Positions 15,001 through 30,000 of a stretch of 64,000 bases of DNA are shown piece by piece. The position numbers were made by a program. This DNA comes from an uncultured cyanobacterium (GTDB lineage: Bacteria; Cyanobacteriota; Cyanobacteriia; Cyanobacteriales; Nostocaceae): contig OY970166.1 in the NCBI GenBank assembly GCA_963706595.1, positions 4,672,001-4,736,000 on the forward strand. Reading direction: 5' to 3'. Numbering within the stretch: position 1 is the first letter of the stretch; the number at the start of each line of letters is the position of its first letter.

Positions 15001-18000
15001 ATGCGGGGGAATATTTACACCTGGAACACACCGATTAATAAACTGGGCATTTTTTGCCGATTTCAACAAAAATATTCCTGCCAAAATTGGTTTCTCATAA
15101 TTAACGGCTACGGTGTCCATAAACTTTTCTAGCCGTTCAAAATCTGTAATCATCTGGCTTTGGAAAAATTGCGCTCCGGCTTCAATTTTGCGTTCAAATC
15201 GCTTTTGTAAACCTGACCAACTGGGAGACTGGGGATCTACAGCCGCACCAGCAAATAACTCAGTCGCCCCATCGGTCAGAGGCTTTTCATTGTCATCAAC
15301 GCCCTGATTTAGCTTCCGAATTAGTTGCAGCAGGCGCACAGATTCTAAATCAAACACGGCTTTAGCATGGGGATGATCGCCAACTTTCACCGGATCACCA
15401 GTTAAAGCTAAAATGTTGCGGATACCCAACGCATGAGCGCCCATTAAATCAGCTTGTAAACCAATTCTATTGCGATCGCGGCAAGCCATCTGACAAATCG
15501 GCTCAATGCCATTCTGTAACAAAATCACTGAGGCTACTAAAGAAGACATCCGCAATACGGCGCGGCTACCATCGGTAATATTGACAGCATGAACCCTTCC
15601 CTTAAGGGTCGCCGCCATTGAAATCATGAGTGTGACATCTACCCCTTTTGGGGGTGCTACCTCGGCGGTCACTAAAAATTCGCCTGCTTGCGCGGCGCGA
15701 CGAAAGGAATTTAAAACTGTGGGATTTTGGGTATCCTGCATAACATTAATTTTTCTGTTTCCTTAAAGGCTATAACGAATTATGCCTAAAAGCGAAACCC
15801 TTAAAGAGGTAGAGTATAGCCCAAAGCAGTTTTTACCTGTGTGAGAGTTTGATTAGCGATCGCCTCAGCTTTTTGCCGTCCTTCCCGCAAAACCGAGTCT
15901 AGATAAGCTTTATCTGCCATCACCGCCTGATATTTTTCCTGTATAGGCGTTAAAGCATTAATTGTTGTTTCTGTCAACAAAGGTTTAAATTGTCCCCAAC
16001 CCATATCTTGACATTCTGCGGCGACCTCTTCCTTCTTCTTTCCAGACAGCAGCATATACAGACTTAACAAGTTGTTACACTCTGGACGCTCTGGATCATC
16101 GAAAGTCAAACCCCGAACCTGATCAGTTTTACAACGCTTAATCTTATATTGAATCTGCTCTGGTGGGTCTAGTAAATTAATCCGGCTTAAATCCGAAGGA
16201 TCAGACTTTGACATTTTGCGCGTACCATCAGCCAAACTCATCACCCTAGCCCCTTCCTTGCGAATTAAAGGCTCTGGTAACTTAATCACAGGCTGGTCAG
16301 GTTTACCAAATTGGTGATTAAATCTGTTAACAATATCTCTTGTCAATTCCAAATGTTGTTTTTGGTCTTCACCTACTGGCACTTTATCAGCTTGATACAG
16401 CAAAATATCAGCAGCCATCAGCACAGGATAGTCCAACAAGCCGACATTGACATTTTCACCCTGTTTAATCGCCTTTTCCTTAAACTGAATCATGTCTTGC
16501 AACCAGTTTAAAGGTGTAATGCAATTAAACAACCAAGTCAGTTCGCTGTGGGCAGAGACGTGAGATTGCACAAAAATAGTGGAATGACTTAAATCCAGAC
16601 CACAAGCCAGATAAAGCGCCACCAGGGTATAGGTATCAGACGCTAACAGTTTGGGGTCGTGTGGCACTGTAATGGCGTGCAAATCAGCCACGAACAGGTA
16701 ATTATCGTATTCGCTCTGACCTTCTACCCAGTTGCGAATGGCTCCCAAGTAGTTACCCAGATGGTAATTACCCGTTGGTTGAACTCCAGAAAGAATACGC
16801 TGCTTGCCCATAAATTTCAACTTAATTTATCTCAAATCCGCTCTCTGTCAAGTGGCGGTTACAAAACTCATTCAATTTTGACACTTTCCTGAATAAATTT
16901 ATAAATATAACAAAAAATGTAGGGACAATTCATGAATTATTCCTACAAATGTTCTGAAAGACGCATATTTAAATTCAGCCGATGTCTATTGAGGTCGAAT
17001 CAGGCTAACGCTTTTGGTTGCACTATCCCAGACTATCCAGGCACAAGAATTATCTACATCTTCTGCATGATTGGTAACTTTAAAATACACCTTATCCTGT
17101 CCTTTGGGTTCAACAGCAAAGTCGGCATTTTGGGCATAAACCACTTTAAAACCTTTGTCTCGCAAGCAATACATCGCCCAAGCTTTCAATGATTGCTTGT
17201 ATGGTTCATGGGGAATTGGTGGTTTAGTGATGGTGTCTTCTATGACTTGAAATATTTCCATTGGTTTTGAGTTTGTAGATATATATATATGTATTTTGTT
17301 GTATCACGCTCCAGAGTCAGAAAAGCAAACAGCGAATCATGAAGCTAAATAACTTCTGGAGACAATAACAAGCGAAACACGGCAGAGAACGTGTTAAATT
17401 TAATTTGCCCATTCAGTTGGAATCACTTAGATTATAAAAATCTAGATTATCTGTTGGGAATATTAGCCTAATTCACTGTTAAGGTAATGAACTCTATACA
17501 AAAACCTTGCTTAACTATTCCTGATTTCCTTGAACATTGGCAAAAAACACAACCAGATGCGATCGCAATTATCGCCCCCCAACGTCAACCCCTAACTTAC
17601 CAGCAACTTCACGCCCAAACCCTGATAGTTGCCCAAGCTTTAGCACAACTCAATATTCATCCTAACGAACCGGTAGCCGTTGCCCTTCCCAACAGTCCAG
17701 AAATGGCTGTGATGTTCCTCTCCGTTGCTTCCTATGCCACCTGCGCCCCCCTCAACCCCAACTATCGAGAAACAGAGTATGAATTTTATCTGAGTGACCT
17801 GCAACCAAAAGCGCTGATTATGCAATCTGGGGTAGCTGACGCAGCCCGCAAAGTCGCGGAAATGCAAAAAATACCAATTATTGAGTTATCACCTAATTTA
17901 GAGGCATCAGCAGGTATCTTTTCCCTGAACTTTACCCCTGCATCTACCGCCCAAATTGACCCCGCCACCCCCGATAATATCGCCCTGATTTTGCATACTT

Positions 18001-27000: not shown

Positions 27001-30000
27001 GTGCTGTTGAACATTTCCAAACATTACTAGAAGGGATTGTTGCTCATCCCGATCAACTTATTTCCCAGTTACCGCTATTCACAAATTCTGAGCAAAAACA
27101 AATTTTAGTTGAGTGGAATCAGACTAAGACAGAATACCCACAGGATAAGTGTATTCATCAATTATTTGAGGAACAGGTCGAGAAAACGCCAGATGCGATC
27201 GCAGTGGTGTTTGAAGATGAACAACTAACTTATCAACAGTTGAATGAAAAAGCTAATCAACTTGCTCATTACCTAAAAGGTTTAGGGGTTGGTACTGATG
27301 TTTTAGTAGGGTTATATGTAGAAAGGTCTGTTGATATTATGGTTGGTATATTAGGCATTCTCAAAGCTGGTGGTGCTTATGTCCCCCTTGACCCCAAATA
27401 TCCATCGGAACGTTTGGCATTAATGATACAGGAGGCTCAAGTTGAGGTTATATTAACACAACAACACCTAATAAATTCACTGCTAAAAACAGAGGCAAAA
27501 ATCATCTGTTTAGATACAGATTGGCAAGTAATATCATCTTCCCATTCTCCTCAATCTTCCCCCAGTCCTCAATCCCCTAATGATCTAGCTTACGTAATTT
27601 ATACATCTGGTTCAACTGGTAAACCCAAAGGCGTTGCTATGCCGCATCGTCCTTTGGTGAACTTAATTACTTGGCAATTACAAACATCCACCATTGAACC
27701 CCAAAGCAGAACACTGCAATACACACCCATTAGTTTTGATGTCTCCTTTCAAGAAATCTTTTCCACCCTGACCACAGGTGGCACATTGGTCTTAATCACC
27801 GATGAGACACGACGCAATCCCAGCAGTTTATTGCAACTTCTTCAGCAACAGCACATCAATCGTTTATTCTTACCCTTTGTTGCCCTACAACAATTAGCTG
27901 AGGTGGTACAGCTAGAAGGTATACTCCTCAGTAGTTTGCAGGAAGTGATTACTGCCGGCGAACAGTTACGGATTACGGAGGCAATCGCACATCTGTTCAC
28001 CCATTTACCCCACTGCACACTACACAACCATTATGGGCCGTCAGAAACTCATGTTGTAACTGCCTATACCTTGACAGGTTCAGCCCAAGATTGGGCGATG
28101 TTACCACCGATTGGTCATCCCATAGCCAATACTCAAATTTATCTCTTAGATGCTTACGGACAACCAGTACCAATTGGGGTAGCAGGGGAATTATATATTG
28201 GGGGTGCTGGTATGGCTAGAGGTTATCTCCATCGTCCTGAACTAACTGCTAAGAAATTTGTTTCCCATCCCTTGAGCCATGAATCAACCGCAAAACTCTA
28301 TCGCACTGGTGATTTAGCACGTTATCTTCCTGATGGAAATGTAGAATTTCTCGGTCGTCTAGATGATCAAGTCAAAATACGGGGTTTCCGTATTGAACTT
28401 GGAGAAGTGGAAGCTGTTCTCAATCAACATCCTCATGTCTTCAATACAGTGGCGATCGCCCGTGAAGACATTCCCGGAGATAAACGCCTCATAGCTTATA
28501 TTATCCTTGAACCCCAAGCAACACCCTCTCAGAGCGAATTGCGGGAATTTCTGAGACAGAAGCTACCAGATTACATGATTCCCTCTGTTTTCGTATTTTT
28601 AGACAAGTTTCCCCTGACTCCCAATGGTAAAATCAACCGTCGCGCTCTGCCCAAGCCTGAATTAACTCTGCAAGAACGAGAGGAAACTTTTATCGCGCCA
28701 CGTAATGAATTAGAAGAGAAACTGGCAGTAATTTGGCAAGAAATTTTAAAGATTGAGCCAATTGGTATTCACGATAACTTCTTTGAACTAGGAGGTCATT
28801 CCCTACTCACAGTCAGTCTGGTAACTAAAATCGAGACGACGCTGGGGAAAAAACTGCCAATTACAGCTCTATTTGAGTTAACAACCATTGCTCAGTTAGC
28901 CAATTATCTTAAAAATGAAGATATTTTAGACAACCCTCCCGCTCATCCCACTATTTACGATTACCAACTTTCTGGAGAGCAAGAAAAACAGCTTTTAGCC
29001 ATTATCGTTGGTCGTCAAGGTGAACGACCTCACCCGCACTCATTCATGGTGAAAATCCACTCAAAAGGTGATCAGGAAAAACCGTTTTTTTACTGCGCTA
29101 ATAGTTATAAAGAAGCTCTACCTTTAGCCAATTGTTTAGAATATTCTTTTTATTTACTCGAATCAGGTTATACTGTCTTTGGTAGTGATTATGCTTACGG
29201 CATTAAGGCTTTAGCGGCGCGCCATGTGGAAGATATTTTAAGAGTCCAGCCTCACGGATTTTATTCCATTGGTGGTTATTCTTATGGAACACTGGTAGCT
29301 TACGAAATTAGTCAGCAACTGCAAGCACGAGGAAAAACCGTAGATTTATTAGTGATTTTTGATCGTCCAGGTACTCATTTTCTTTACGTACTTTATCAAT
29401 ACTTCTACAAGCTACCGTCTCATATTAGTTGGATTTTGTCTACTCTCCAGCAGTCTCACCCCAGAAAACGTTTGCAAGATTTGCAACAAAAAGGATTAAG
29501 GATTTTGCGGAGGTTGGGATTAAATCAGATACCACAGCAAGCAACAACAGAAATACAACTATCAGAACAGAGCCTATCTTCCCCAATGCTGAACACATCT
29601 CCTTATCAATTTGCGCCCTATGAAGGTCGTGTAGTCTTGTTGTGTGCAGAGGAAAGAAAAACGCCACTGTGGTTATTTCCCCACAATGGGTGGAGTCAGA
29701 AAATCCTACCCAATTTGGAGGTATACAAAGTACCTGGGACGCACCACAACATGATTAAATCTCCCCATGTCGAAGTTTTGGCAAAACAACTGAAAACGTG
29801 TTTACAACGCATCGCATTTTAGTTTGGTAGAAAGGATTGCCCGCCCTTGTGTACCTCACCCAAATGAAATGTGCTGTAACTATTCCTCATCCAGTTGCAT
29901 TTGATGGCGATTTGGTTTGAATAAACTGGCTGTGGTTGTTTTCATCACAATATACAAAATTGGCACGACAAACAAACTCAGAAAAGTAGCGATTAACATC

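What a model noticed while it worked through the whole genome (the two positions that open the first line are those of the whole stretch)
17487..29822. NRPS module whose adenylation domain is split between motifs A5 and A6 over two genes, with free-standing tailoring gene [...]
In the orphan NRPS cluster g04215-g04221 one adenylation domain stops right after motif A5 (g04217 ends ...NLYGPTEATIG...) and resumes at the start of g04220 (ISIGKPI...A6-A10-PCP). A stand-alone methyltransferase and a flavin monooxygenase gene lie between the halves. The same break point with varying inserted genes recurs in distant cyanobacteria, so it is a conserved architecture, not decay.
Evidence so far: Pfam AMP-binding positions 1-330 lie on g04217 and 343-384 plus AMP-binding_C and PCP on g04220. 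The methyltransferase was found in 4 of 400 other genomes of the order, from 4 different families. In all 4 the upstream NRPS ends just after the A5 motif; in 3 of 4 the downstream gene starts with the matching 'I.IGKPI' half (once fused to a further C-A-PCP-TE module); the inserts differ: MT+FMO, FMO+MT, alcohol dehydrogenase+MT. The N-halves are 53-60% identical to g04217, above ordinary A-domain similarity.
(Added by a program. Inside this text positions count along the whole contig: contig position 4,672,001 is position 1 of the stretch shown here. "Call 12" and the like, gene names such as g00115 and contig names such as C1 are that model's own, and its searches are not shown. The text may have been shortened before it was handed on; [...] marks where a part breaks off. 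The agent that wrote the report below was given it as the finding of a first reader that could run no searches.)

Follow-up and report, generated by a model that had tools for sequence, protein, structure and literature searches.

The report
Adenylation domain split across two genes
In scattered cyanobacteria, the amino-acid-activating domain of a peptide synthetase is made as two separate proteins cut inside its catalytic core, with tailoring genes between them; if the halves reassemble, this is a natural plug-in point for changing what the enzyme builds.

Summary
Confirmed and extended. One A domain ends 18 residues after motif A5 (21808) and restarts at its own ATG (24347) just before IGKP, with methyltransferase and flavin monooxygenase genes between; no residues or catalytic motifs are lost. 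The break recurs in 4 other genomes of 4 families, one metagenome locus and 3 more database proteins. All 6 C-halves have an ATG in register (32 of 826 intact domains do), and both halves are under purifying selection. The loop is a real insertion site: another cyanobacterial NRPS carries a whole decarboxylase in frame there. The specificity subdomain and methyltransferase travel together, while C-halves resemble local modules. One genome has two different N-halves and one detected C-half. Corrections: the g04216/g04217 break is an in-frame TGA (Arg in orthologues), not a frameshift, so this copy is probably inactive; the 'missing' C-half exists on another contig. Best reading: a heterodimeric A domain working in trans (0.65, untested). 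The closest precedent, corallorazine Crz1/Crz2, is split at A8/A9. The scan had noted the oxalyl-type starter and an in-frame A5/A6 insertion on other DNA, not this split.

The parts
17487..19406 (+). g04215: acyl-AMP ligase fused to a carrier domain; likely oxalate-loading starter (inferred)
   Evidence: Pfam AMP-binding, AMP-binding_C, PP-binding; best solved relatives are oxalate-CoA ligases, E 4e-130 to 5e-122, next class 5e-66; same gene in G201 beside an ICL/PEP-mutase-family gene
19403..20722 (+). g04216: condensation domain (active-site variant HHIVDDD), cut short by an in-frame TGA
   Evidence: Pfam Condensation 2-415 of 456; motif shared with orthologue P0021
20720..20722 (+). Premature TGA separating C from the A N-half; orthologues have Arg here
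   Evidence: Same frame on both sides; P0021 (801 aa, 88% identical) and four further cluster members covering the site read through
20810..21808 (+). g04217: N-half of the A domain (A1-A5, nine of ten specificity positions), ending 18 residues after YGPTE
   Evidence: Pfam AMP-binding 1-330; aligns to GrsA (1AMU) residues 18-346
21818..22678 (+). g04218: free-standing class I SAM methyltransferase-fold protein of uncharacterised family; the constant insert gene
   Evidence: Pfam Methyltransf_11; model pLDDT 92; fold matches many class I methyltransferases at Z about 19, none specific
22737..24305 (+). g04219: class B flavin monooxygenase (FMO-like); variable insert gene
   Evidence: Pfam FMO-like E 1e-61; best solved relatives ancestral mammalian FMOs, E 8e-53; present in 4 of 6 full loci
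24347..25189 (+). g04220: C-half of the A domain (IGKP, A6, A7, A8, A10 Lys) plus PCP, with its own ATG
   Evidence: Pfam; motifs; in-register ATG
25190..25565 (+). Broken remnant: copy of the ligase gene start joined to a second, stop-interrupted PCP tail
   Evidence: 61 nt 92% like 17512-17572 and 264 nt 72% like 24943-25206; translation; skipped in a relative's contig in run X2
25566..29822 (+). g04221: docking domain-C-A-PCP-thioesterase; A predicted to activate proline
   Evidence: Pfam TubC_N, Condensation, AMP-binding, PP-binding, Thioesterase; pocket residues read DVQFIAHVVK, recalled as the proline code; groups with the last modules of G201 and G334, support 100/99

Best explanation
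The middle module is a naturally split adenylation domain. One chain (C domain plus A1-A5) carries the P-loop and the amino-acid pocket; a second chain (IGKP-A10 plus PCP) supplies the rest of the core, the A7 aspartate, the A10 lysine and the carrier. They most likely fold together into one two-chain A domain that activates a large, possibly aromatic amino acid and loads it on the second chain's PCP, while the genes in the gap make or modify that unit. The cut lies in a surface loop that tolerates insertions, at the end of the specificity subdomain, and the block 'A3-A5 subdomain, stop, methyltransferase and other genes, restart' moves between NRPS clusters by recombination in conserved flanks. 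In the window's cluster type the line would give an oxalyl-X-Pro product released by the thioesterase. Shown: anatomy, conservation, start codons, motifs, selection, mosaic ancestry, insertion tolerance of the loop. Inferred: reassembly, activity, substrate, product, role of methyltransferase and FMO. The window's own copy is probably inactivated by the TGA in the C domain (about 0.6; otherwise a single-base sequence error).
For: Same break in G000, G007, G201, G334, G161 (two copies), L028, P0019, P0020, P0021; tails of 10-22 residues after YGPTE. Window tail plus head is 22 residues, within the normal 16-24 (704 of 721 measured). ATG in register 6 of 6 against 32 of 826, and again in relic L030. 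A3, A5, A7, A8, A10 motifs present in all halves covering them; PCP serine in 5 of 6, the sixth cut by a contig end. dN/dS 0.10-0.48 for the N-half subdomain and 0.08-0.30 for the C-half; 0.27 in the least diverged pair. Profile search of the order sample: five hits at E<1e-76, all split; the sixth (8e-47) an intact alanine-type domain. Nearest intact relatives have this loop expanded to 34 and 53 residues, and a G1116 NRPS holds a complete PLP decarboxylase in frame between A5 and IGKP. G201 and L028 share 90% in A3-A5 but their C-halves are closer to their own neighbouring modules (86%, 80%) than to each other (73%); dS 0.19 and 0.22 for subdomain and methyltransferase against 1.5 for the C-half. 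A split A domain active in trans is published (PMC11342130).
Against: No activity, expression or product data. The cut is inside the folded core, so both chains must co-fold or be stable apart; the published precedent is cut at the mobile A8/A9 hinge, an easier case. Decay is frequent around the cassette: nonsense codon and remnant in the window, a frameshifted FMO and a stop-interrupted upstream A gene in L028, a lyase relic in G201, a relic-only locus L030. Most dS values are saturated, so purifying selection could partly predate the split. Monophyly of the split subdomains was not resolved in the tree. Most loci were found through the methyltransferase. The search of long proteins missed the known G201 member, so absence of intact members is weak evidence. 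No ribosome-binding site is evident upstream of the C-half starts.
Confidence: 0.65

Rival explanations
1. Dead relic: an insertion of tailoring genes broke an A domain once, and the inactive block hitch-hikes by horizontal transfer with useful neighbouring genes.
For: Very patchy occurrence (0 of 388 other genomes in the own family, 1 of 20, 1 of 89, 1 of 52 in three other families); lesions in 4 of 7 DNA loci examined, though in flanking or insert genes or as whole-locus loss; low GC of the block (35-36% against 41% for the genome).
Against: Both halves keep open frames, catalytic motifs and start codons across 45-67% divergence; dN/dS 0.27 at dS 0.19 in a pair that both carry the split; C-halves renewed from local modules still keep the ATG.
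Confidence: 0.12
2. The halves are useful but do not adenylate together: the C-half serves only as a carrier loaded by another A domain, and the N-half acts as a substrate-binding or scaffold partner for the methyltransferase.
For: Loading of a module in trans by a separate A-T protein is known (albicidin, ramoplanin; PMC8949500 passages); in G161 the first N-half has no adjacent C-half; the methyltransferase follows the N-half subdomain in ancestry.
Against: No spare A domain lies in the window cluster; P-loop, A7, A8 and A10 lysine are all conserved, whereas trans-complemented A domains are described as having lost core motifs.
Confidence: 0.13
3. The halves are rejoined into one chain or gene by DNA excision, RNA splicing, an intein or read-through.
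For: In the window the N-half, methyltransferase and C-half share one reading frame; 3 of 6 junctions where the methyltransferase abuts a half are in frame (one third expected).
Against: No flanking repeats at the break; no Rfam match at E<=1 in 16500-30500; no recombinase or reverse-transcriptase family in the insert genes; tails vary in length and sequence; gene order and content vary; one insert gene set lies on the opposite strand (G161); each C-half has its own ATG.
Confidence: 0.04

Closest known systems
Corallorazine NRPS Crz1/Crz2 split A domain (PMC11342130)
   Same: One A domain on two genes, a methyltransferase at the break, second gene begins with the rest of A plus the carrier; active only when both proteins are mixed.
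   Different: Crz is cut after A8, between core and mobile subdomain, with the methyltransferase fused to the first gene. Here the cut is inside the core between A5 and A6, the tailoring enzymes are separate genes that vary between loci, and activity is untested.
Interrupted A domains, families 1-7 (PMC8341866) and MOx-type A4/A5 insertions (PMC8097286)
   Same: A tailoring enzyme sits at an internal position of the A-domain sequence.
   Different: Those are single polypeptides, with insertions at a2-a3, a4-a5, a6-a7 or a8-a9; here there are stop codons, a restart and an a5-a6 position.
JamL-type A domain with embedded PLP decarboxylase (PMC3870968 notes the embedding, not its position)
   Same: A protein of this architecture in G1116 has its insertion in the same A5-IGKP loop.
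   Different: In frame, one chain, different A-domain pocket and different enzyme; that G1116's protein is JamL itself was not established.
Bacillamide BmdB-BmdC (PMC8795117)
   Same: A free tailoring enzyme works with an NRPS A domain next to a loop where relatives embed it.
   Different: BmdB's A domain is one chain; binding of the methyltransferase to the split A domain is only a hypothesis.
Oxalate-CoA ligases (PDB 6QJZ, 5IE0, 8AFF) as NRPS starter
   Same: Closest solved relatives of g04215.
   Different: Fused to a carrier domain at the head of an NRPS; substrate not tested.

Membership tests
Naturally split, trans-active A domain (Crz1/Crz2 type) | A-domain motifs divided over two genes with none missing | tested here: met
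Naturally split, trans-active A domain (Crz1/Crz2 type) | Second gene has its own start and carries the carrier domain | tested here: met
   ATG in register 6 of 6; PP-binding
Naturally split, trans-active A domain (Crz1/Crz2 type) | Break between A8 and A9 | tested here: not met
   Break lies between A5 and IGKP/A6, near GrsA residue 346
Naturally split, trans-active A domain (Crz1/Crz2 type) | Adenylation activity only when both chains are mixed | not testable with these tools
   Needs an ATP exchange assay
Interrupted A domain (families 1-7) | Auxiliary domain in frame within one polypeptide | tested here: not met
   Stop codons between N-half, insert genes and C-half in all 6 full loci; no fused NRPS form among 17 longer methyltransferase relatives of 502-2000 aa
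Interrupted A domain (families 1-7) | Insertion at a2-a3, a6-a7 or a8-a9 | tested here: not met
   Position is a5-a6
JamL-type A5/A6 in-frame insertion | Insertion in the loop between A5 and IGKP | tested here: met
   Same loop as in the G1116 protein
JamL-type A5/A6 in-frame insertion | In-frame PLP decarboxylase | tested here: not met
   Insert genes are a methyltransferase and an FMO, as separate ORFs
Excision element, intron or intein | Flanking repeats, recombinase, or structured RNA at the break | tested here: not met
   intein motifs judged by eye only
Oxalate-CoA ligase family (g04215) | Closest sequence similarity to characterised oxalate ligases | tested here: met
Oxalate-CoA ligase family (g04215) | Activates oxalate | not testable with these tools
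   Needs an assay

The most novel reading that the evidence does not exclude
The split makes the specificity-bearing half an exchangeable subunit: any local A6-A10-PCP chain can complete it, and one C-half can serve two different N-halves, as the G161 arrangement suggests (two N-halves with different pockets, one detected C-half). Nature would then have a plug-in A domain that switches substrate by subunit exchange and carries its own tailoring genes in the gap, and A5/IGKP would be a general split site for NRPS engineering.
Probability: 0.3. Interest if true: 0.87.

Novelty: new variant of a known kind. Interest (0 to 1): 0.7.

Why it matters
Only one split yet functional A domain turned up in the papers searched, and it is cut at the hinge between the two rigid parts. 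A conserved cut inside the core, exactly where the substrate-selecting subdomain ends, would show that the catalytic core can be built from two chains and that the specificity half can be paired with generic second halves. That gives NRPS engineers a natural, testable split point and explains a class of clusters that annotation tools would discard as pseudogenes. The clusters also point to undescribed small peptides, some with a probable oxalyl cap.

Tried and rejected
Complex prediction with the methyltransferase as partner of both halves: no answer, score 0.00 twice; no evidence either way, and the halves alone were not scored. AlphaFold of the N-half: pLDDT 42, unusable. Profile search of 1.84 billion representatives: the 150 listed hits were all giant multi-module NRPSs ranked by summed score; used only as a control set. 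Pattern scan of genome contigs with the single methyltransferase: 1 spurious locus from 20 candidates. Plasmid search: no match. No RNA holder listed. A genome-wide scan found 62 same-frame long ORF pairs; of the 22 printed only this one has the GAT-TGA context, so no systematic error pattern was seen. Promoter and terminator scans were at chance level. Methyltransferase substrate: sequence, Atlas and fold searches gave only generic class I matches. Atlas search of the N-half subdomain gave generic AMP-binding clusters. In-frame ancestry of the insert: 3 of 6 junctions in frame, not more than chance. Frameshift between g04216 and g04217: rejected. Oxime chemistry by analogy to a PKS oxidase hit (8ODW; listing only): a lead, weak because the FMO is absent from 2 of 6 loci. 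Cystobactamid and Vfm papers and the DiPaC review held nothing on this split.
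Full report
Observation. ORF 20810-21808 covers Pfam AMP-binding positions 1-330 and stops 18 residues after YGPTE; the next A-domain sequence begins at an ATG at 24347 (MGISIGKPI) and covers positions 342-384, AMP-binding_C and a PCP. The N-half aligns to GrsA residues 18-346. The stretch between YGPxE and IG.P is 16-24 residues in 704 of 721 A domains measured among the proteins held at that point; tail plus head in the window make 22, so nothing is missing. 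A methyltransferase-fold gene and an FMO lie between.

State of this copy. g04216 and g04217 are in the same frame, divided by one TGA at 20720-20722. An 801-residue orthologue, 88% identical, reads Arg there, as do four further members of its cluster that cover the site, one named by its source as from Aphanizomenon sp. PH219 and 202. This is a nonsense change, not a frameshift. A remnant at 25190-25565 duplicates the ligase start and a PCP tail and is skipped by a contig of a relative. Reads over the TGA could not be seen, and no systematic error pattern appeared in the genome. I put the chance that this copy is inactive at about 0.6.

Conservation. The methyltransferase is in 4 of 400 other genomes of the order at E<1e-80, 0 of 388 others of the own family and 2 of 400 others in a phylum sample, both already known. 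A profile of the A3-A5 stretch, which does not depend on the methyltransferase, gave 6 of 401 genomes at E<=1e-46 (at most 9 candidates scored per genome): the same five, all split, and one intact alanine-type domain far weaker; in three further families it gave 1 of 20, 1 of 89 and 1 of 52, again only known members. A metagenome scan gave 10 loci from 431 candidates: one full cyanobacterial-type locus (L028), one relic (L030) and eight distant methyltransferases in other contexts. A protein search gave 7 hits among 226 candidates: five end just after A5 (two are the G007 and G334 proteins; P0019, named Planktothricoides sp. SR001, P0020 and P0021 are new), two are intact at 43% and 38%. Among long proteins no hit exceeded 39% (56 of 522 candidates), but that search also missed the known G201 protein, so it is weak. 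Inserts differ: MT+FMO (window, G334), FMO+lyase relic+MT (G201), FMO+chorismate-lyase-like+MT (L028), alcohol dehydrogenase+MT (G007), MT followed by O-methyltransferase and shikimate dehydrogenase genes (G161).

Signs of function. All 6 C-halves start with Met 4-5 residues before IG.P, against 32 of 826 intact domains with Met at -5 to -2; the relic L030 keeps the same junction as G201. P-loop, A5, A7, A8 and A10 lysine are present throughout; the A6 pattern matched 5 of 6 and is visible in the sixth alignment row. N-half tails are never shorter than 10 residues after YGPTE, which keeps the last two pocket positions and the following strand (the structural reading is recalled from GrsA). Crude Nei-Gojobori dN/dS is 0.10-0.48 for the N-half subdomain (15 pairs) and 0.08-0.30 for the C-half (12 of 15 pairs measurable); most dS values are saturated, but the G201/L028 pair gives 0.27 at dS 0.19. 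Against this, L028 has a frameshifted FMO and a stop-interrupted upstream A gene, G201 a lyase relic, and L030 is a fragment.

Why this site. The two nearest intact relatives have the loop expanded to 34 and 53 residues. Following a lead from an earlier scan note, I found an NRPS in G1116 with a complete PLP decarboxylase in frame between A5 and IGKP; an embedded decarboxylase is noted for JamL without its position (PMC3870968, passage). The loop therefore tolerates large insertions. It is also where natural specificity swaps end: a recombinant tract from A2 to A5/A6 comprising the flavodoxin-like subdomain (PMC9205934, passage) and frequent exchanges within the core (PMC8097286, passages).

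Mosaic ancestry. G201 and L028 are 90% identical in A3-A5, with dS about 0.2 there and in the methyltransferase, but their C-halves are 73% identical (dS 1.5) and each is closer to an intact module of its own cluster (86% and 80%; tree support 92/94 and 92/98, below the starred level). Upstream C domains and starters also differ between loci. The moving unit is thus the subdomain, the stop, the insert genes and the restart; the C-half looks generic. The subdomain tree did not resolve the split members as one clade, so a single origin is likely but not shown. In the window the block is AT-rich (GC 35-36% against 41%).

G161. Directly upstream, past an opposite-strand methyltransferase, the contig end holds a second, diverged N-half that also stops after A5, with different pocket residues. 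Contig C25 ends in a 98% copy of the first 122 bases around the start of the first C-A gene; the middle of this second gene is not in the assembly. Of 3 C-half-type matches in this genome only one is free-standing. Two N-halves may share one C-half, or the first may be orphaned; the assembly has about 330 contigs.

Mechanism. Most likely the C-A(N) chain and the A(C)-PCP chain assemble into a two-chain A domain; catalysis needs both, since the P-loop and pocket are on one and the A7 aspartate and A10 lysine on the other (roles recalled; lysine role also in PMC10510592, passage). The pocket reads D-A-A-T-G-G-L-I-G-K by GrsA numbering (my alignment by eye); it resembles the neighbouring alanine-type domains with large residues replaced by small ones, which suggests a bulky substrate. 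Chorismate-lyase-like, shikimate dehydrogenase and O-methyltransferase neighbours, and fusion of distant methyltransferase relatives to PaaK-like ligases, hint at an aromatic unit; this is weak. g04215 is closest to oxalate-CoA ligases, and G201 adds an ICL/PEP-mutase-family gene that could supply oxalate (not found in the own genome). The last module is predicted to add proline. The product for this cluster type would be oxalyl-X-Pro or a cyclised form, methylated and oxidised. The methyltransferase's substrate is unknown.

Comparison with what is known. Corallorazine Crz1/Crz2 is described as the first split yet functional A domain, cut after A8 and active when mixed 1:1 (PMC11342130, passages and the in vitro section). 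Interrupted A domains are single chains with insertions at a2-a3, a6-a7, a8-a9 (PMC8341866, abstract and introduction) or a4-a5. BmdB-BmdC shows a free tailoring enzyme docking beside a loop where relatives embed it (PMC8795117, passages). A review of non-canonical NRPSs mentions split modules but not a split A domain in the passages seen (PMC8949500). Ten searches of the open library returned no paper describing an A5/A6 two-gene split or this cluster; subscription papers are largely missing and no supplements were read. The scan's earlier notes held nothing on this sequence, one in-frame A5/A6 insertion and several oxalate-type starters.

Verdict. A real, rare, mobile and conserved architecture; a new variant of the split A domain, with the cut inside the core at the end of the specificity subdomain. 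Function in trans is probable (0.65) but untested, and the window's own copy is a poor test object. Interest 0.70.

Noticed in passing
window 17487-19406: Oxalate-CoA-ligase-like domain fused to a carrier as NRPS starter; a separate ligase paralogue (50% identical, no carrier match) lies elsewhere in the genome.
   Followed up: partly
window 19403-20722: Condensation domain has HHIVDDD instead of HHxxxDG, shared with orthologue P0021; L028 has HHIVTDD.
   Followed up: no
window 25190-25565: Relic joining the ligase gene start to a second PCP tail that ends like g04220 and overlaps the next start codon; absent from a relative's contig.
   Followed up: partly
window 24305-24330: Exact 13-base tandem repeat between the FMO stop and the C-half start.
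   Followed up: no
L071:13645-13938 (-) and L027:11957-12078: Second, diverged N-half in G161 and a near-identical copy of the first gene's start at another contig end.
   Followed up: partly
L137:2618-8587 (-): NRPS with a complete PLP decarboxylase in frame between A5 and IGKP in G1116.
   Followed up: partly
L022:10724-13939: Unusual A-PCP-deaminase-methyltransferase protein upstream of the split module in G007.
   Followed up: no
L023:12594-19874 (-): G201 NRPS with a formyltransferase-like region between two condensation-type regions, downstream of the oxalate-type starter.
   Followed up: no
L028:3837-5240: TauD-family dioxygenase fused to a carrier domain upstream of the split module.
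   Followed up: no
P0001-P0017: Distant members of the methyltransferase family are fused to PaaK-like ligases, a Mur ligase or Gfo/Idh/MocA oxidoreductases; the family has LLGVTPE where class I enzymes usually have a glycine-rich motif (recalled).
   Followed up: partly
window 29880-34892 (-): RND-type efflux gene pair (judged from the sequences) converging on the cluster end.
   Followed up: no
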